A stretch of DNA of 64,000 bases. It comes from a virus. The notes beneath the pieces are model-generated. The model worked only from the letters and a program-made list of their open reading frames with translations. It did no database searches and was not told where the DNA came from. Of this stretch, positions 20,577 to 27,404 are shown in pieces. Positions within the stretch are counted from its first letter, which is position 1, and every line of letters begins with the position of its first letter. The position numbers and the translations under genes are program-made. Location: positions 1 through 64,000 of IMG/VR virus record IMGVR_UViG_3300008108_000039, one strand, 5' to 3'.

Positions 20577-21035
20577 TTATTTTACAAGAGCATCAGCAGC
20601 ATACGTCATCATTGGACATTCACCTTTATGTCTTACTTTATATCCCATACCTGTTACAATACCTACAGCACTTGCTAATGCTTGATTTGAACGGTATTTT
20701 GGATCAGGATTAAGATCAATATCAATCCAAGTTGCTACTATACTTGTTTCATTTTTAATTGCTTCTGCCACTTCAACAGAAAACCATACTTCATTTAATA
20801 AACGAACTGTATTTTCTTTTTCACGTAATGTATTAAATCTTGAATATAATACATGAGCTCCTTTTCCTGGGCGTGAAAGTCCAATTACAATAGCATATAT
20901 TGTTTCGTTTTTTCTGTTTTGTGAATCACATCCAATAAGTATTTCTACATTATCGTGTTGTAATATGTATTCTTTTATATATTGTATTAGCTCAATTTTT
21001 TGATTTGAAGCTAATGTTTTAAACATTTTTTCCAT
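20577..21035 (-). CDS. RNase H-fold protein (YkuK/DUF458-like)
   Basis: IGCDSQ, RLLNEVWFSVEVA, IDIDLN, YAAD. Confidence 0.8.
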   Translation of the reverse strand: MEKMFKTLASNQKIELIQYIKEYILQHDNVEILIGCDSQNRKNETIYAIVIGLSRPGKGAHVLYSRFNTLREKENTVRLLNEVWFSVEVAEAIKNETSIVATWIDIDLNPDPKYRSNQALASAVGIVTGMGYKVRHKGECPMMTYAADALVK

Positions 21036-21051
21036 AATTTAAAATTTAATA

Positions 21052-21119
21052 ACTGAGAAAATTTAACTGAGTTTGTTTTGATATTTGCAGAATCGAAGTA
21101 ACTCAACTATAACTACAGC
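21052..21119 (-). ncRNA. Y-RNA-like element 1
   Basis: stem-TAG-stem-GTTACTTCG...TTCT-stem consensus shared with 4 other elements; next to Ro60 gene. Confidence 0.65.
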
Positions 21120-21131
21120 ATTAATAAATTG

Positions 21132-21330
21132 ACCGAGATTTCTGGGGTGAGTCGTTCGGTAGCTCCGAACAGCACCAGGGAATTTATACTCGTCGTCAAG
21201 TGTTTTTTAAGCACCAGTACACGTCCTCTACCCTGATAACTCGAGGGAAGTTGGTAGATTGTATTTAAAATGAGCGGCATGTAGCCGCGGTATTTAATTA
21301 CGAAGTACCTCACCTAATCCTTACTACGGT
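21132..21330 (-). ncRNA. Y-RNA-like element 2 (large insert)
   Basis: ACCG-TAG...GGTGAG-GTACTTCG...CTCACC...TCT-CGGT. Confidence 0.65.
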
Positions 21331-21367
21331 AATATTTTAATCAAAGATCTATTTGTTATATATAAAT

Positions 21368-21397
21368 ATACGGGCGGCGTTTTAAACCGCCCATATA
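21368..21397 (-). terminator. hairpin terminator after Ro60 gene
   Basis: GGGCGG/CCGCCC stem followed by AT tract. Confidence 0.55.
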
Positions 21398-22939
21398 TTA
21401 TATTTCAATTGCTTCAATAGCTTTAATCAGTGCTTTTGGATCAATTTCTACTTTTTTAATCAGTTCATAAATGTCTGATGAATATCCGTAAATACCATAA
21501 ACTTTACTTCCTGGTTTAAACATTGTAGTTCCATATCCGCAAATATCTACTGAATATACATGCATATTTGCATATGCTGATTTTTCTATGTGATCTTTAC
21601 CTTGCATATCTGAAATTATAAACACACGATCATAGTTTTTTCCTATAGTTCTGAATATGCTTTCAAATGCTGTTCCATATCCTACTGATCCTTGTTGACC
21701 TAAGAATTGATTCTTAAGTGTATTTACACTATCAAGTGGGTTAAACTTAATTTGAGTAGTTCTATCAGCAAAATGATAAACATCGGCATTAATACCCTTA
21801 GCTAATGTAGCTGCAATTAATGCTGCTTTTGCAATAGCGGATTCTGAACCAGCATTTTTATTAGCTAATCTAATTCGTGAGGTCATTGAACCTGAACTAT
21901 CAAATATTACTGCTGTTTTTCCATGTGGAAATAATTCAGTTAAGTTTGGAATAGCTAACTCATAAGCTGTATTTAAAGCATTTATAAATGGTCTTGCTCC
22001 ACTTGCTCCAAATTCATCTAACATTATTTCTAATGCTAAATCAATTTGGTGAGGAAATACTAATGATTGCTTAATTAGAGCTTTATCAGTTAATAATTCA
22101 CAAGCACCTTTAATAACTTCGGATTTAGCTCCTGTTTTTAAGATGTTTCTTAAGTTACGTAGTAACGCTAAGTAACCAATCTTACGAGTTTCAATCAATT
22201 CAGCAAAGTTATCTTCTTTAGCTTCATTTAATACTGCTACAGCTTGTTCAGCAGTAATTTTTCCTGCTTTTACTTTAGCTGCTACTTCTTGACCTGCTTT
22301 AGTATTTTTATCTTCTACTGTGTTAAATTGCTTTAACTCACCTTTCATCAATTTAGCAAACACTGACTTCATCTTTTCAGAAGGTTTTGGGTGTACTAAA
22401 TTAATAATATCAACTAAAGATAAATCACGATTTTTAGCTTGATATTTTGCTAATTCATATTCATCAGCTGCTTCTAAAGCCGCTTTAAATCCTTTTTTGA
22501 TAGCGTTTGATAATTGTTTACCTGGGTTTCTAGCTTGATAGCATGCTGCTATTTCTAGCATATCATCTAAACGATAGATGACACCACCAGCATTTGCTTT
22601 TCTTTCTCTTTTAGAGAAGAATCTAGCACCTAAACTATCACCAGCTAATACTTTAGCTAATTCTACAGCACCAAAGTGTGTAACAGTTCTTTGACCCATA
22701 ACACTACGAGCATATACCATTGCTTTTGCAGCGAATACTTTATCAGTTTTAGCTACTTCAGCAATAACATTAGCAAAACGTTGTTCGCGTTCACCTAGTT
22801 TTTCATAATACTTATTATCCAAACCTGTAGCTAAAATTGCTACTAGTTCAGTTTTTGAATCATATTGATAACCATTTCCACCTTGGTGGTTTACAACTGT
22901 TTGTACAGTTGGTTTTGCTTTTGCATTAAAACGTGCCAT
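21398..22939 (-). CDS. rsr: Ro60/TROVE-domain RNA-binding protein with C-terminal vWA domain (Rsr-like)
   Basis: NHQGG, YELAKY, DIINLVHPKP, ALLRNLRNI, MIDAS DSSGSM, GYGT, ISDMQ. Confidence 0.92.
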   Translation of the reverse strand: MARFNAKAKPTVQTVVNHQGGNGYQYDSKTELVAILATGLDNKYYEKLGEREQRFANVIAEVAKTDKVFAAKAMVYARSVMGQRTVTHFGAVELAKVLAGDSLGARFFSKRERKANAGGVIYRLDDMLEIAACYQARNPGKQLSNAIKKGFKAALEAADEYELAKYQAKNRDLSLVDIINLVHPKPSEKMKSVFAKLMKGELKQFNTVEDKNTKAGQEVAAKVKAGKITAEQAVAVLNEAKEDNFAELIETRKIGYLALLRNLRNILKTGAKSEVIKGACELLTDKALIKQSLVFPHQIDLALEIMLDEFGASGARPFINALNTAYELAIPNLTELFPHGKTAVIFDSSGSMTSRIRLANKNAGSESAIAKAALIAATLAKGINADVYHFADRTTQIKFNPLDSVNTLKNQFLGQQGSVGYGTAFESIFRTIGKNYDRVFIISDMQGKDHIEKSAYANMHVYSVDICGYGTTMFKPGSKVYGIYGYSSDIYELIKKVEIDPKALIKAIEAIEI

Positions 22940-23026
22940 TTTACTACTAATTTAATTGTTAGAGAATATTAATTGCTTTTTACTTAATAAATGTAAGACT
23001 ATCTTTTTTGACAACCAAACTTTTTG

Positions 23027-23108
23027 TGCCCAGAGAGAGACTCGAACTCTCACGCCTTTCGGCACCAGTTTCTAAAACTGGCGTGTACTGCCATTTCACC
23101 ACCTGGGC
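23027..23108 (-). tRNA. tRNA-Leu(UAG)
   Basis: cloverleaf, CCAGT-TTTAGAA-ACTGG, long variable arm. Confidence 0.92.
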
Positions 23109-23113
23109 ATAGA

Positions 23114-23233
23114 GTGGGCCTTTCCCCACGGTCAAACAAGCTTGAAATTTACCTACGCACAGTGAGGTACTTGTTGTGATCATTCACAGAGCCTAACCCT
23201 TTACTAGTATAGTTTCGGTTGTCGTGCGTGTCA
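23114..23233 (-). ncRNA. pseudoknotted ncRNA motif, copy 2
   Basis: see copy 1. Confidence 0.75.
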
Positions 23234-23238
23234 TGCTG

Positions 23239-23334
23239 TAGTCAGGACAGGATTCGAACCTGCAGTGTAGGACTTATTTTTTTTTGCCTCTATCCGTTAC
23301 GGAACACCCTTTAGCCAATTTGGGACACCTGACT
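23239..23334 (-). ncRNA. tRNA-like element with AGTCAGG/CCTGACT acceptor and no canonical anticodon arm
   Basis: D-arm CCC..GGG, GCAGG-TTCGAAT-CCTGT T-arm. Confidence 0.65.
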
Positions 23335-23337
23335 GTT

Positions 23338-23583
23338 TTATAAGCCATCTTCCCAACGCCCTAAAACTAGTTGAGGAATTATTCCGGTATTCTCTTTCTC
23401 AAATAAACTTTCATCAAATTTAAAATCAACAACTATTTTTTCATCGCTTACCCAATTTTTACCAAAATCTTCAATAGTTAATTCGGCACCATATTTAACT
23501 AACAATGCTTTTAACTCATTATAAAATAATTGTTGCTTTTCAACAGTTGAATTATATTGCTTTTCCTTGTTCATATTATACAA
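23338..23583 (-). CDS. hypothetical protein
   Basis: 81 aa AT-rich ORF inside RNA island. Confidence 0.6.
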   Translation of the reverse strand: MYNMNKEKQYNSTVEKQQLFYNELKALLVKYGAELTIEDFGKNWVSDEKIVVDFKFDESLFEKENTGIIPQLVLGRWEDGL

Positions 23584-23625
23584 ATTAGTGCTATTATAGC
23601 CATTGTTTTTAGTTTTTATTTTTCG

Positions 23626-23728
23626 TAGTCTTTATATAAACGTAGGGTTGCAACCCCTAACTGCCTAAGTGTCATACACCTCCTGCTTGGACATTTATAT
23701 TGCGTCTAACCAATTTCGCCACCTGACT
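23626..23728 (-). ncRNA. second AGTCAGG tRNA-like element, T-arm missing
   Basis: AGTCAGG-TG-GCG-AAATTGGTTAGA-CGC 5' half; ends ...GACTAC without T-arm. Confidence 0.5.
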
Positions 23729-23735
23729 ATCTTAG

Positions 23736-23807
23736 AAGCCTCGGAGGAACTCGAATCCCCAACGTTCTCCTTAGAAGGGAGACATTCTTCCATTGAATTA
23801 CGAGGCC
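23736..23807 (-). tRNA. tRNA-Arg(UCU)
   Basis: TCTCC-CTTCTAA-GGAGA. Confidence 0.9.
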
Positions 23808-23812
23808 AAATG

Positions 23813-23884
23813 AGCAGGTAGTCAGAATCGAACTGACATCTCGAGTTTGGAAGACTAGAGCACTAACCGTTGTGCTATACCTGC
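23813..23884 (-). tRNA. tRNA-Gly(UCC)
   Basis: CTAGT-CTTCCAA-ACTCG, U73. Confidence 0.88.
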
Positions 23885-23972
23885 AATTCAAAGACAAACC
23901 TCGGCCTTGTATACCGACTTGGAAACCCTTTAGCTAGCCACTAACACTGATTGTAGTCTATTTGTCTTTTTG

Positions 23973-24056
23973 AGCCGAGCAAGAGATTCGAACTCTCAGT
24001 GGACTTTCGTCGCCTGCTTACAAGGCAGGTGCAATCAACCATTATGCGAACTCGGC
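23973..24056 (-). tRNA. tRNA-Thr(UGU) with long variable arm
   Basis: GCCGAGT acceptor, CCTGC-CTTGTAA-GCAGG, GAC-GAAA-GTC extra arm. Confidence 0.85.
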
Positions 24057-24064
24057 ATTATTTG

Positions 24065-24133
24065 TAGCGTATACTAGTGTCGATCTAGTCTAAAATCGGA
24101 TATGAGCCAATTTTGGTCGCCGGACCATACGCC
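24065..24133 (-). tRNA. atypical tRNA with CAU anticodon
   Basis: GGCGTAT/ATACGCT acceptor, 4-nt D loop, 8-bp anticodon stem, T-loop ATCGACA. Confidence 0.55.
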
Positions 24134-24137
24134 AAGT

Positions 24138-24274
24138 AAAACACTGCTGGGATACCCGTCTCGTCCCAATCTTAACGGCTTTATTGAAGTTTTATGATGC
24201 ATCGGCCGAGGGTGATACTGCTTTTATTCTCATTCGGTTTGTCGACAACCAGCCTGAGAGTCAGTCAGTGTTTT
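24138..24274 (-). ncRNA. structured spacer RNA with predicted pseudoknots
   Basis: closing helix AAACACTG/CAGTGTTT; CCGT/ACGG crossed by GGGA/TCCC. Confidence 0.5.
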
Positions 24275-24275
24275 G

Positions 24276-24349
24276 TTGCGGTGGGCTAGATTCGAACTAG
24301 CGATTTTGACCTTATGAGAGTCACGAGATGACCACTTCTCTACCCCGCA
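24276..24349 (-). tRNA. tRNA-Met(CAU), initiator-like body
   Basis: TGCGGGG acceptor, TGACT-CTCATAA-GGTCA. Confidence 0.8.
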
Positions 24350-24360
24350 ATATAAGTTTG

Positions 24361-24433
24361 TAGTGATGACGAGACTCGAACTCGTAACCTCGATGGTATA
24401 AGCATCTTGCGCTGACCATTGCGCCACATCACC
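24361..24433 (-). tRNA. tRNA-Ile(UAU)
   Basis: AGATG-CTTATAC-CATCG, A73. Confidence 0.85.
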
Positions 24434-24516
24434 AAATTTAAATAACTACTTACTCTATATAACCACCATCCACGTCATGCGCTGGTTGAGCTCAGCCAGC
24501 AAGTAGTTTGTTTAAG

Positions 24517-24590
24517 CCGGAACAACGGGATTCGAACCCGTACCGCACACCGTGACAAGGTGGCATTGTAAACCATTCAACCATGCTCCG
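24517..24590 (-). tRNA. tRNA-Asp(GUC)
   Basis: CACC-TTGTCAC-GGTG, G73. Confidence 0.88.
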
Positions 24591-24699
24591 GAATAAAGTA
24601 AGAAAGTTCATTACGTCTAACAAACCAGTGTTTCTACTTTGGCTCAATCGAATTATGATCACTTCACGATGTGTTGCATTTCGTCTACTTCTTACTTTG

Positions 24700-24771
24700 T
24701 ACTCCCGACGAGAATCGAACTCGCATTTTCAGATCGAAAATCTGACATCCTAACCATTAGATGACAGGAGC
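24700..24771 (-). tRNA. tRNA-Glu(UUC)
   Basis: TCAGA-TTTTCGA-TCTGA. Confidence 0.9.
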
Positions 24772-24775
24772 GTAA

Positions 24776-24884
24776 TGATGAAAGAATATTGGTACAGTTT
24801 CAGCCGGAATTGAACCGGAAAGTTTAAACCAAAATTAAATGCCCACCATGGGCGCGAAGTAACTGTGGTCCTTACTATTCATCA
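24776..24884 (-). ncRNA. Y-RNA-like element 3 with degenerate tRNA-Gln-like insert
   Basis: TGATGAA-TAG..ACAGTTACTTCG..AACTGT..TTCT-TTCATCA; D-, UUG anticodon- and T-like hairpins inside. Confidence 0.7.
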
Positions 24885-24887
24885 ATG

Positions 24888-24973
24888 TGGGAGTAACAGG
24901 AATCGAACCTGTACCTCTGCAGGCTGCGGTTTTACAGACCGTGGTGGCTAAAGCCAGTATCCACCTTACTCCC
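24888..24973 (-). tRNA. tRNA-Tyr(GUA)
   Basis: CGGT-CTGTAAA-ACCG, long variable arm. Confidence 0.88.
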
Positions 24974-24976
24974 AAT

Positions 24977-25108
24977 TTGTAGAAGAATGCTTAGAAAAGT
25001 TTGTTTTGGTTGTAAATGCGGGACTCAAACCCACGCGTTTTTCTTGGAAGGAAAATGATCTATCTCTGATCTAATTTACGAAGTAACTTTTCAATTTACT
25101 ATCTACAA
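24977..25108 (-). ncRNA. Y-RNA-like element 4 containing a complete tRNA-Gly(UCC)-like cloverleaf (25007..25080)
   Basis: TTGTAGA-TAG..GAAAAGTTACTTCG-[GTAAAT..GATC/GATC..TTTTC-CTTCCAA-GAAAA..GTGGG/CCCGC..ATTTAC-AA-CCA]-AACTTTTC..TTCT-TCTACAA. Confidence 0.72.
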
Positions 25109-25114
25109 TAATTT

Positions 25115-25192
25115 TGCTGAGAATGACTAGAAGAGTTGTTTTTCAATTTAGATTTACAAGTCTACGAAGTAACTCTATCTATAACTACAGCA
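25115..25192 (-). ncRNA. Y-RNA-like element 5
   Basis: TGCTG-TAG-TTATAGATAGAGTTACTTCG..AACTCTTCTAG..TTCT-CAGCA. Confidence 0.7.
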
Positions 25193-25200
25193 TTTGTATT

Positions 25201-25259
25201 TTCAAAGATCTTTTATTCTTATTTTTCTTATACATTAAATATACAATAAAAATTTTGCC
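25201..25259 (-). promoter_or_regulatory. internal promoter (GGCAAAAT..TATATT) plus boxA-like GATCTTTGAA for second half of RNA island
   Basis: motif at 25238-25259, boxA-like at 25201-25210. Confidence 0.6.
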
Positions 25260-26675: not shown

Positions 26676-27113
26676 TCAAAGATCCTTTAGATAATCTTGT
26701 ATAGTTATATTTTGTTCTTTTTCTAAGTAGTGAAACTCAGAATGACAATTTCTACACAAAGTAATACATTTTTCTATTTCATTCCAAAATTTTTCTTTAC
26801 CTAAATAATAATTACTACTAATATCAAACTTTTTGTTTTTAGGATCTAAATGATGAAAATCTAAAATATACCATCTTTTATCTCCACATTTAGAACAAGT
26901 ACATGTTTTTTTATATTCAACAAAAATGTTTTTCTTTTTCTTAGTTACACTTTTATTTTTTTCTAATTGTATTTCTCTGTTTTCGTAATACCAATCTAAA
27001 TGTTGTTTTTTAGTACATTCACGACAGGCTTTTTGTTTACCATCACTTTGTATTTTATTATTATTAAATTCACTCAGTTCTTTTTGTTGTTTGCATTTAT
27101 TACATATTTTCAT
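26676..27113 (-). CDS. HNH endonuclease inserted in tRNA array
   Basis: CNKC..CREC Zn site; CSKCG..LDFHHLDP..KC..LCRNCH. Confidence 0.88.
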   Translation of the reverse strand: MKICNKCKQQKELSEFNNNKIQSDGKQKACRECTKKQHLDWYYENREIQLEKNKSVTKKKKNIFVEYKKTCTCSKCGDKRWYILDFHHLDPKNKKFDISSNYYLGKEKFWNEIEKCITLCRNCHSEFHYLEKEQNITIQDYLKDL

Positions 27114-27331: not shown

Positions 27332-27404
27332 TGGTACCCCTCGGTTCCGACCCGAGTCCTGAAGATTTTCAGTCTTCCGCTTCTACCAAGTTAGCTTGAG
27401 CACC
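27332..27404 (-). tRNA. tRNA-Phe(GAA), first gene of the array
   Basis: GAAGA-CTGAAAA-TCTTC. Confidence 0.88.

What the first reader, a model, noticed from the sequence alone, without database searches (positions are those of the whole stretch)
21052..25192. Ro60 (TROVE) gene with a five-member family of Y-RNA-like RNAs carrying swappable tRNA-derived cargo
Seen: five elements (21052-21119, 21132-21330, 24776-24884, 24977-25108, 25115-25192) share one frame: stem1-TAG-TWA-stem2-G(T/G)TACTTCG-[variable]-stem2'-(T)TCT-stem1'. Stem sequences differ but stay paired (GCTG/CAGT, ACCG/CGGT, TGATGAA/TTCATCA, TTGTAGA/TCTACAA, TGCTG/CAGCA). The cargo varies: anticodon-like hairpins (CTGCAAA in 1, CTTGTAA in 5), a degenerate tRNA-Gln (3), a full tRNA-Gly (4) and ~150 nt of other structure (2). 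Two lie directly downstream of the Ro60 gene. Established: bacterial Ro60 (Rsr) binds Y RNAs encoded nearby, and YrlA-type Y RNAs mimic tRNA. Inference: the conserved frame is the Ro60-binding module, and the phage makes a panel of RNPs presenting different tRNA decoys. The frame does not match the animal GGUCCGA/bulged-C element, so the Y-RNA label rests on context.
Basis: partly seen in the sequence, partly recalled or inferred. Interest (0 to 1): 0.8.

Follow-up and report, generated by a model that had tools for sequence, protein, structure and literature searches.

The report
Phage Ro60 with five modular Y-RNAs
A 167-kb freshwater phage encodes the RNA-binding ring protein Ro60 and five small RNAs that share one conserved stem "handle" but display different inserts, mostly tRNA look-alikes. 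The same handle sits beside Ro60 genes in dozens of other phages and in Bacteroidota genomes, so this is a widespread, unannotated branch of the bacterial Y-RNA family.

Summary
Exactly five elements on the minus strand share the frame stem1-U-RG-URA-stem2-UACUUCG-[cargo]-AAAAC-stem2'-UUCY-stem1'. The motif pattern gives 5 hits against 0 expected, and these are the only 5 in the 167-kb genome.

A covariance model built from the frame finds it beside Ro60 genes in more than 40 phage contigs and in 45 of 79 Bacteroidota-type genome loci. Hits lie almost always on the Ro60 strand, and all 12 modelled pairs covary.

A pattern-first scan that did not use Ro60 gave 14 of 19 frame-positive records with Ro60 against 0 of 28 controls (p = 3e-8).

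In relatives the same frame carries circularly permuted tRNA-like domains. Rfam's YrlA model aligns to these full-length but below threshold (28-46 bits against 69). Cellular relatives have UAGCGA or UGGCGA, which bridges the phage UAGUAA to YrlA's GNCGAA motif.

The frame is therefore a diverged YrlA/YrlB-type Ro60-binding stem, and the Y-RNA label no longer rests on context alone.

New here:
- an unpermuted tRNA-Gly-like cargo with encoded CCA but without GlyRS identity elements;
- anticodon-arm-only minis;
- a 150-250-nt non-tRNA cargo;
- embedding in tRNA arrays.

Ro60 binding and a decoy function are untested. This scan has noted analogous "handle" RNA arrays beside Ro60-like genes on other DNA.

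The parts
25115..25192 (-). E5: mini Y-like RNA. It consists of the frame plus one short hairpin with the anticodon-loop-like loop CUUGUAA.
   Evidence: CM R1 77.6 bits. Fold z = -2.2. An orthologous element in L008 keeps the loop ACUUGUAAA with a changed stem.
24977..25108 (-). E4: frame carrying an unpermuted tRNA-Gly(UCC)-like cloverleaf (25007-25080) with encoded CCA. The conserved UUCG runs into the acceptor stem.
   Evidence: ARAGORN. Rfam tRNA 54 bits. R1 36 bits. The acceptor is C1.A72, G2-C71, U3-A70 with discriminator A73, then CCA. Orthologs carry UUC or AUC loops with a pyrimidine at position 37.
24776..24884 (-). E3: frame carrying a degenerate tRNA-like body. It has a 5-bp hairpin in place of the D-arm, an anticodon-like arm and a canonical T-arm.
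   Evidence: R1 21.9 bits, E = 0.004. Five orthologs align at 88% column identity with compensatory changes in the inner hairpins.
21398..22939 (-). Ro60 (TROVE + vWA) gene
   Evidence: Pfam TROVE. Profile hits to PDB 9KOP/9L5Y (phiLo Ro60), 1YVP (Xenopus Ro60) and 2NVO (D. radiodurans Rsr).
21372..21392 (-). GC-rich hairpin just after the Ro60 stop codon; terminator-like
   Evidence: Read directly. Conserved in L008, and replaced in L009, L013 and L017 by a different hairpin followed by a T-run.
21341..21350 (-). Promoter-like box AGATCTTTGA, 10 nt upstream of E2
   Evidence: There are only two exact copies in the window, one before E2 and one before E5. The same box precedes the first elements of runs in relatives. 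It resembles the Bacteroidota -7 box TAnnTTTG (my own knowledge; inference).
25202..25211 (-). Second copy of the promoter-like box, 9 nt upstream of E5
21132..21330 (-). E2: frame with about 165 nt of non-tRNA structured cargo. It holds a conserved position immediately downstream of Ro60.
   Evidence: Orthologs lie directly after Ro60 in L007, L008, L009, L013, L015, L017 and L023. Seven of the 13 predicted frame pairs show compensatory changes. Fold z = -2.4.
21052..21119 (-). E1: mini Y-like RNA, 16 nt upstream of the start codon of the next gene
   Evidence: R1 74.1 bits. Stem 2 contains G.U and U.G pairs that exist only on this strand.
20577..21035 (-). RNase H-like (PF04308) gene, probably co-transcribed with E2 and E1
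   Evidence: Pfam E = 3.5e-19. It is conserved right after Ro60-E2-E1 in 11 close relatives and was not found in the more distant loci.

Best explanation
The five elements are phage Y RNAs. They are non-coding RNAs whose paired 5' and 3' ends form a conserved rod that is the docking site for the phage Ro60 ring. The distal end of the rod displays an exchangeable module.

Anatomy that is shown:
- Stem 1 (4-9 bp, free sequence).
- A bulged U.
- Two conserved pairs, RG:CY.
- An internal loop, 5' URA against 3' N3-4 UU.
- Stem 2 (about 8-10 bp).
- A second conserved junction, 5' (U)UAC against 3' AAAAC.
- UUCG then opens the cargo's closing helix.

This rod is a diverged form of the YrlA/YrlB 5' module: URGYRA corresponds to GNCGAA, and UUAC to the conserved YUAY.

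Inferred steps:
- The RNAs are transcribed from their own promoter-like boxes, together with neighbouring tRNAs.
- They are cut out by the host tRNA-processing enzymes, because they sit 2-6 nt from flanking tRNAs.
- Ro60 binds the rod on its outer face, as in the Xenopus Ro60-Y RNA structure.
- The displayed module recruits a partner protein or gates the Ro60 cavity, as shown for Rsr-Y RNA-PNPase in Deinococcus and in vitro for phage phiLo. The module may be a tRNA-like body, an anticodon-arm-like hairpin or the E2 domain.

E4 is more likely a non-chargeable tRNA mimic than a decoding tRNA.
For: Motif statistics are.

Covariation. On 44 aligned elements, 92% of cells are paired against 59% after shuffling, and against 36-48% when partners are slid. 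All 12 pairs show double changes, and 0 of 500 shuffles reach the observed score.

Association with Ro60:
- 45 of 45 CM hits lie on the Ro60 strand in 22 Ro60-anchored sources.
- Pattern-first test: 14 of 19 CM-positive IMG/VR records carry Ro60, including 5 of 5 that are at least 90% complete, against 0 of 28 CM-negative records; Fisher p = 3.4e-8.
- 13 of 13 whole-genome hits in five complete phage genomes lie within 4 kb of Ro60 on the same strand.
- 88 of 88 hits (E <= 0.1) lie on the Ro60 strand in 45 of 79 Bacteroidota-type genome loci, often as tandem runs directly upstream of Ro60.

Link to known Y RNAs:
- Rfam YrlA aligns full-length inside frame elements of relatives at 28-46 bits, with its stem on the frame stem.
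- Intermediate motifs UAGCGA and UGGCGA occur in relatives.
- Chen et al. 2014 (PMC4201824) define GNCGAAN0-1G and YUAY. They show that bacterial Y RNAs are encoded within 4 kb of Ro60 on the same strand.
- The phiLo Ro60, the closest solved structure, binds two phage-encoded Y-like RNAs and host PNPase (PMC12135203).

E4:
- Its acceptor is C1.A72, G2-C71, U3-A70 with A73. The phage's ordinary tRNA-Gly(UCC) has G1-C72, C2-G71 and U73.
- Orthologs have drifting, non-canonical anticodon loops.
Against: No binding, transcript or processing data exist.
- None of the five window elements is hit by any Rfam family, even at E <= 10.
- The strict GNCGAA motif is absent from the window.
- Some elements lie far from Ro60 inside tRNA arrays: 75 kb away in one 299-kb phage. 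One 171-kb fragment has an element but no detectable Ro60.
- The pattern-first test is limited to the first 80 of more than 119 matching stretches.
- Most Ro60-lacking frame-positive records are small fragments, so they neither support nor refute the link.
- Relatedness among loci inflates the covariation and strand counts.
Confidence: 0.75

Rival explanations
1. The frame is a leader-trailer duplex that cages or chaperones tRNA precursors. It would be a processing or storage handle. Cargo such as E4 would be released by RNase P and 3' processing as working tRNAs, with Ro60 at most a bystander or a quality-control factor for these precursors.
For: - E4 and at least 12 elements in relatives hold complete cloverleaves that start within the conserved UUCG.
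- The E4 lineage encodes CCA.
- Elements sit 2-6 nt from flanking tRNAs, like array members.
- M. smegmatis YrlA is an RNase P substrate (PMC4201824).
Against: - About 45% of elements are minis with no tRNA body, and E2-type cargo is not tRNA-like.
- Many cargos are circularly permuted tRNAs with a sealed acceptor stem, which can never be charged.
- E4 duplicates an existing tRNA-Gly(UCC) and lacks G1-C72, C2-G71 and U73.
- Orthologs of E4 have a pyrimidine at position 37 and shifted loops.
- The two internal loops are far more conserved than a mere duplex would need to be.
Confidence: 0.12
2. The frame is recognised by a different protein, such as the PF04308 RNase H-like protein encoded just downstream or a host factor. 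Under this view Ro60 co-occurs only because both belong to the same tRNA/RNA island.
For: - The PF04308 gene follows Ro60-E2-E1 in 11 close relatives, and E1 ends 16 nt before its start codon.
- Some elements lie tens of kb from Ro60.
Against: - PF04308 was not found in the more distant frame-bearing loci, L015, L016, L019-L032 and L001.
- Ro60 is present in every complete frame-positive genome tested.
- The frame aligns to the Ro60-binding stem of YrlA.
Confidence: 0.08
3. The elements are selfish or decaying repeats, such as MITE-like copies or tRNA pseudogene debris in a recombining tRNA array, with no function of their own.
For: They occur in multiple copies, cluster in tRNA arrays, and some cargos are degenerate tRNAs.
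Against: - Stem sequences differ between copies but stay paired, and the loop nucleotides are 95-100% conserved across Ro60 proteins as low as 26% identical.
- The strand link to Ro60 is strict.
- One 127-nt element is identical, apart from its anticodon, between two phages whose flanks are only 87% identical.
Confidence: 0.02

Closest known systems
YrlA / YrlB Y RNAs of bacteria and mycobacteriophages (Rfam RF02553; Chen et al. 2014, PMC4201824)
   Same: - Encoded beside Ro60 on the same strand.
- The 5' and 3' ends pair into a two-helix stem with a conserved purine-rich 5' motif, followed by YUAY.
- Relatives carry the T-arm, sealed acceptor hairpin, D-arm order of YrlA and align full-length to the Rfam model.
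- The minis parallel YrlB, which has the stem without the tRNA-like domain.
   Different: - Scores are 28-46 bits against the gathering score of 69, and nothing at all on the five window RNAs.
- GNCGAA is replaced by UAGUAA, UAGUUA or UAGUGA.
- There is an extra invariant UACUUCG / AAAAC junction.
- There are up to 5-7 copies per locus.
- Cargo types not described for YrlA: an unpermuted tRNA with CCA; a permuted tRNA opened in the variable region that keeps a separate anticodon arm; a 150-250-nt non-tRNA domain.
- In phages the elements are interleaved with tRNA genes.
Thermus phage phiLo Ro60 with Yrl1/Yrl2 (PMC12135203; PDB 9KOP, 9L5Y)
   Same: A phage-encoded Ro60 with phage-encoded Y-like RNAs next to the gene. 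It is the closest solved structure to this Ro60 (E = 1e-39).
   Different: The phiLo RNAs were picked by a CGAA motif. The frame model finds nothing in the phiLo locus. phiLo has two RNAs and no tRNA-derived cargo is reported.
Deinococcus radiodurans Yrn1/Yrn2 and metazoan Y RNAs (RF00019)
   Same: Modular design: a Ro60-binding bulged stem plus a variable effector-binding module. Several paralogous Y RNAs serve one Ro60.
   Different: There is no GGUCCGA/bulged-C element and no Rfam hit. The cargo here is derived from tRNA parts.

Membership tests
Y RNA (Ro60-associated ncRNA, general definition) | Physically bound by Ro60 | not testable with these tools
   Needs RIP-seq or EMSA.
Y RNA (Ro60-associated ncRNA, general definition) | The 5' and 3' ends pair into a long stem that holds a conserved bulged or internal-loop region | tested here: met
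   All 12 modelled pairs covary and 92% of cells are paired. The bulged U plus the RG:CY switch is. Loop bases are 95-100% conserved.
Y RNA (bacterial criterion of Chen et al. 2014) | Encoded within about 4 kb of the Ro60 gene, on the same strand | tested here: met
   E2 and E1 lie 68-346 nt downstream of Ro60 and E3-E5 lie 1.8-2.3 kb upstream, all on the minus strand. The same holds in relatives, with exceptions inside distant tRNA arrays.
YrlA (Rfam RF02553) | Score at or above the gathering threshold of 69 bits | tested here: not met
   No YrlA hit on E1-E5 at E <= 10. Frame elements in relatives score 28-46 bits.
YrlA / YrlB | GNCGAAN0-1G motif near the 5' end | tested here: not met
   The window has UAGUAA or UAGUUA. 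In relatives, UAGCGA/UGGCGA occur in 15 of 88 elements (17 with CG-containing variants) in the genome-contig set and in 4 of 98 elements in the phage set. The YrlA model aligns GGCGAAUG to UGGUAAUA.
YrlA | Conserved YUAY after the second helix | tested here: met
   UUAC within GUUACUUCG in E1, E3, E4 and E5; E2 has GUAC. It aligns to the model's CUA.
YrlA | tRNA-like domain in the order T-arm, sealed acceptor-like hairpin, D-arm | tested here: not met
   None of the five window RNAs has it: E4 and E3 are in canonical order, and E1, E2 and E5 have no T- or D-arm. It is present on the same frame in relatives, for example L007 2244-2395, L015 4860-4998 and L025 12457-12598.
Functional tRNA-Gly (for E4 only) | Cloverleaf recognised by tRNA finders | tested here: met
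   ARAGORN tRNA-Gly(tcc) at 25007-25080; Rfam tRNA 54 bits.
Functional tRNA-Gly (for E4 only) | Bacterial GlyRS identity set: G1-C72, C2-G71, G3-C70, U73, C35 and C36 (from established tRNA-identity literature; my own knowledge) | tested here: not met
   E4 has C1.A72, G2-C71, U3-A70 and A73; only C35 and C36 are kept. The ordinary tRNA-Gly(UCC) at 23812-23884 has G1-C72, C2-G71 and U73.
Metazoan Y RNA (RF00019) | GGUCCGA helix with a bulged C | tested here: not met
   No Rfam hit, and the motif is absent from the sequences.

The most novel reading that the evidence does not exclude
The phage, and Bacteroidota generally, run a multi-headed Ro60 particle. One ring protein is loaded with a panel of Y RNAs that present tRNA bodies attached at three different points of the cloverleaf (acceptor end, D/anticodon junction, variable region), or bare anticodon-arm mimics. 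The displayed anticodon loops are the business end. They bait or sense proteins that read anticodons, such as host anticodon nucleases used in anti-phage defence or tRNA repair and modification enzymes. The panel would then be a tunable counter-defence or tRNA-surveillance platform. The one clean hint is a 127-nt framed tRNA mimic that is identical between two phages except for two adjacent anticodon bases (UCU against GAU), while the flanks are 87% identical.
Probability: 0.15. Interest if true: 0.85.

Novelty: new variant of a known kind. Interest (0 to 1): 0.66.

Why it matters
Bacterial Y RNAs are known from a handful of experimental systems and one Rfam model. That model misses this entire branch.

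The frame defined here gives a searchable signature for Ro60 partner RNAs in several places:
- Bacteroidota;
- freshwater jumbo-size phages;
- crAss-like gut phages, including the named phage csAssE-Sib, where the RNA is unannotated;
- a 634-kb huge phage.

The family is a natural experiment in modularity. One invariant docking stem carries many cargos: canonical tRNA, two kinds of permuted tRNA, an anticodon arm alone, and a large unrelated domain. That makes two questions directly testable: what does the Y-RNA effector module recruit, and why does it mimic tRNA? It also warns annotators that some 'tRNA genes' in phage arrays, E4 here, are probably Y-RNA cargo and not decoders.

Tried and rejected
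- **Rfam on the window.** Gathering and E <= 10 searches gave nothing on the five elements. The only YrlA hit (19 bits, 24294-24415) spans two adjacent tRNAs and is the known dimeric-tRNA artefact.
- **Frame model on other phage Ro60 loci.** The Thermus phiLo and Vibrio phiKT1024 Ro60 loci gave no real hit, so the frame is clade-specific and not universal to phage Ro60.
- **RNA-repair partners in the genome.** RtcB (PF01139), Rnl-type RNA ligase (PF09414) and CCA-adding enzyme (PF01743) were all absent. An RtcB-type repair cassette is therefore not supported here.
- **'Anticodon drift' in the E3 lineage.** Rejected as evidence. The loops differ mainly by a register shift around a conserved UUUGG or UUAGG.
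- **Anticodon drift in the E4 lineage.** It is real but also involves a one-base register shift.
- **Control for anticodon conservation.** Canonical tRNAs matched between window and relatives keep the anticodon in 24 of 29 matches. Loci cover only parts of the arrays, so this is weak.
- **AGATCTTTGA as a general phage promoter.** There are only two exact copies in the window, so it is at best a local box.
- **Whole-genome CM scan.** The first-look candidate list was truncated in two genomes (150 of 154 and 150 of 173 scored), and it missed a 42-bit element 75 kb from Ro60 in G016. The '13 of 13 within 4 kb' figure is therefore not exhaustive.
- **Papers I could not read.** The supplement of Chen et al. 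2014, the 2018 and 2020 Wolin-lab reviews, and Burroughs & Aravind 2016. I cannot exclude that Bacteroidota YrlA-type members or tandem Y RNAs are listed there.

Full report
**Setting.** The window is the first 64 kb of a 167,479-bp, about 99% complete IMG/VR virus record. Bases 19.7-27.4 kb form an RNA-gene island on the minus strand with at least 24 tRNAs. The ORF 21398-22939(-) is a Ro60 orthologue. Pfam TROVE matches at E = 1.9e-9. A profile of it and eight relatives hits the crystal structure of Thermus phage phiLo Ro60 (9KOP/9L5Y, E = 1e-39), Xenopus Ro60 (1YVP, 1e-13) and D. radiodurans Rsr (2NVO, 8e-13).

**Observation.** Read on the minus strand, the five stretches have the stated frame and stems.
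- The pattern TAGTWA-N6-16-GKTACTTCG occurs 5 times against 0 expected, and nowhere else in the genome.
- A covariance model (R1, 72 positions, 12 pairs) was built from nine short elements of the window and relatives. With filters off over 8.2 kb it scores exactly these five (E <= 0.004), and the next hit is at E about 1.
- Spacing is tRNA-like. E5 to E4 is 6 nt, E4 to tRNA-Tyr 3 nt, tRNA-Tyr to E3 2 nt, and E3 to tRNA-Glu 4 nt. E2 to E1 is 12 nt, and E1 ends 16 nt before the ATG of a PF04308 RNase H-like gene.

**Anatomy.** Alignment of 44 and then 54 further elements shows the following:
- Stem 1 has free sequence.
- U is invariant (96-100%), R follows, then G (97-98%), U (94-95%), R, and A (100%).
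- Stem 2 follows.
- Then come U (100%), A (92-95%), C (100%), U, U (100%), C (97-100%) and G.
- After the cargo comes an A-rich AAAAC, then stem 2', N3-4, UU, C and Y, then stem 1'.

UAG..UUCU switches to UGG..UUCC. So the U is bulged and RG pairs with CY. UUCG usually opens the cargo's closing helix: it pairs with UGAA in E5-type minis and forms the first acceptor pairs in E4.

On 44 elements, 92% of cells pair against 59% after shuffling and 36-48% with slid partners. All 12 pairs show double changes, and 0 of 500 shuffles reach the score. Those alignments were fitted to the model and the sequences are related, so these numbers are generous. The RNAalifold runs on MAFFT alignments agree independently.

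**Association with Ro60.**
- *Ro60-anchored search.* 26 IMG/VR loci with Ro60 at 26-86% identity, plus the 634-kb huge phage LR745206, were collected. They give 45 CM hits, all on the Ro60 strand. In LR745206 (Ro60 36% identical) two elements sit just upstream of the gene, with new compensated stems.
- *Pattern-first search, blind to Ro60.* A 14-base pattern scan of IMG/VR returned 80 loci. R1 was positive in 19 new records. A Ro60 profile search of the whole records found Ro60 in 14 of these 19, including 5 of 5 that are at least 90% complete. It found Ro60 in 0 of 28 pattern-only records (Fisher p = 3.4e-8).
- *Whole-genome scans.* In five complete genomes of 68-299 kb, 13 of 13 hits lay within 4 kb of Ro60 and were co-oriented with it.
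- *Caveats.* The candidate list was truncated in two genomes. One 42-bit element lies 75 kb from Ro60 inside a second tRNA array. One 171-kb fragment has an element 6 kb from its end and no Ro60. The elements are thus residents of tRNA arrays in genomes that encode Ro60, and they are usually, but not always, next to the gene.

**Link to known Y RNAs.** Rfam finds nothing on the five window RNAs. In relatives the same frame carries a T-arm, a sealed acceptor-like hairpin and a D-arm, which is the YrlA architecture. RF02553 aligns full-length inside those elements at 28-46 bits, against a gathering score of 69. In these alignments the YrlA stem lies on the frame stem. YrlA's GGCGAAUG lies on UGGUAAUA, and its CUA (the conserved YUAY of Chen et al. 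2014, PMC4201824) lies on the UAC of UACUUCG.

A search of one genome per prokaryote species with the Ro60 profile gave 79 loci. Most are Bacteroidota MAGs (Saprospiraceae, Chitinophagales, Cyclobacteriaceae, Flavobacterium), on contigs up to 660 kb. R1 hits 45 of them. All 88 hits at E <= 0.1 are on the Ro60 strand, often as tandem runs of 3-7 directly upstream of the gene. There the 5' motif is UAGUGA, UAGCGA or UGGCGA, which bridges the phage UAGUAA to GNCGAA.

The frame is therefore a diverged YrlA/YrlB-type Ro60 module shared by Bacteroidota and their phages. A Bacteroidota host also fits the -7-like box (A/T)GATCTTTGA that precedes E2, E5 and the first elements of runs in relatives. That host reading is my inference.

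**Cargo.** Among 97 distinct phage elements there are 43 minis. Forty-seven have a T-arm, split between a permuted order (T before D, T-arm 10-25 nt after the motif) and a canonical order. Seven are long with no tRNA features. The genome-contig set has 46 minis, 27 permuted, 8 canonical-order and 7 other.

Three attachment points on the cloverleaf occur on one and the same frame:
- at the acceptor ends (E4 type);
- between the D-arm and a short anticodon-loop-like hairpin (YrlA type, for example L015 4860-4998);
- in the variable region, with a full 5-bp/7-nt anticodon arm after the D-arm (L025 12457-12598, L017 3214-3354).

The window itself has none of the permuted type. Its set is two minis (E1, E5), one degenerate canonical-order body (E3), one complete cloverleaf (E4), and the E2 type. 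The E2 type always sits right after Ro60 in the closer relatives, and its interior is only loosely conserved.

**E4.** It scores as a tRNA and is the only one of the first 13 tRNA-type sequences printed that ends in CCA. However:
- It duplicates tRNA-Gly(UCC) at 23812-23884.
- It has C1.A72, G2-C71, U3-A70 and A73, where bacterial GlyRS needs G1-C72, C2-G71, G3-C70 and U73 (established identity rules; my own knowledge).
- Its orthologues read UUC or AUC, with a pyrimidine at position 37.

I read it as a mimic tethered to the frame. The encoded CCA might block RNase Z, but that is speculation.

**One further hint.** Between two gut-phage contigs whose flanks are 87% identical, a 127-nt framed cloverleaf is identical except for two adjacent anticodon bases (UCU against GAU).

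**Mechanism.** Shown:
- a conserved, covarying rod with two invariant loops;
- a strict genomic link and co-orientation with Ro60;
- alignment-level correspondence to the YrlA stem;
- modular cargo.

Inferred: Ro60 binds the rod and the cargo recruits or gates. The basis is analogy with Rsr-Y RNA-PNPase in Deinococcus and Salmonella, and with phiLo Ro60-Yrl-PNPase in vitro (PMC4201824, PMC12135203). The genome has no RtcB, Rnl ligase or CCA-adding enzyme. A PF04308 RNase H-like gene follows E1 in 11 close relatives only. It may be a lineage-specific partner, but it cannot explain the frame's wider distribution.

**Novelty.** Phage Ro60 genes and phage YrlA or Yrl RNAs are published (PMC4201824, PMC12135203, PMC7824862). 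I found no paper or Rfam family for this frame, for its multi-copy arrays, or for a canonical tRNA carried on a Y-RNA stem. I could not read the 2014 supplement, the 2018 and 2020 reviews, or Burroughs & Aravind 2016. The named phage csAssE-Sib (OR575929.1) carries an unannotated element upstream of tRNA-Tyr, tRNA-Lys and its annotated Ro sixty-related protein. This scan's earlier notes describe analogous handle-plus-tRNA-mimic arrays beside Ro60-like genes on other DNA. Those are unchecked AI notes and are not used as evidence.

**Verdict.** This is a new variant of a known kind.

Noticed in passing
L007:5491-5917 (+): A GOLLD RNA (RF02032, 239 bits) lies directly upstream of the Ro60 gene in an 81%-identical relative. 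The window has only about 90 nt there and no GOLLD hit.
   Followed up: no
L029:4375-4501 vs L031:1461-1587: A framed tRNA-like element is identical between two phage contigs except for two adjacent anticodon bases (UCU against GAU). The flanks are about 87% identical.
   Followed up: partly
L153:3496-3630 (OR575929.1, phage csAssE-Sib): This named crAss-like gut phage has an unannotated frame/YrlA-like RNA (R1 23.8 bits, YrlA 28.5 bits) upstream of tRNA-Tyr, tRNA-Lys and its annotated Ro sixty-related protein.
   Followed up: partly
window 23109-23735, 23885-23971, 24134-24274, 24434-24515, 24591-24698: Long spacers between tRNA genes are not frame elements (no R1 hit) and have no Rfam match. 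They may hold other structured RNAs or introns.
   Followed up: no
window 24064-24133 and 27332-27404: The tRNA finders disagree. ARAGORN calls a 70-nt tRNA-Met at 24064-24133 that Rfam does not score. Rfam scores a tRNA at 27332-27404 (41.6 bits) that ARAGORN misses.
   Followed up: no
window 26676-26685 (-): A variant of the promoter-like box, GGATCTTTGACATATTG, sits just upstream of tRNA-Trp. The same GATCTTTGACATATTGG form recurs in several relatives, so it is possibly the array's main promoter.
   Followed up: partly
L016:1062-1220; L007:4387-4586: Relatives carry a permuted tmRNA (RF04321, 64 bits) and a group I intron (RF00028, 61 bits) inside the same tRNA arrays.
   Followed up: no
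L035:4444-4590 (-) in a 171,766-bp contig: A frame element sits between tRNA-Ala and tRNA-Gly in a large fragment (62% complete) where no Ro60 homologue was found. Either the gene lies off-contig or this is a true exception.
   Followed up: partly
L181:314-1097; L186:4143-4940; L189:3491-4948: Genome-contig loci have 5-7 tandem frame elements directly upstream of Ro60. L181 is labelled Patescibacteria, L186 Bacteroidota and L189 Sericytochromatia. L189 mixes the elements with about 11 tRNAs and looks phage-like despite its MAG label.
   Followed up: partly
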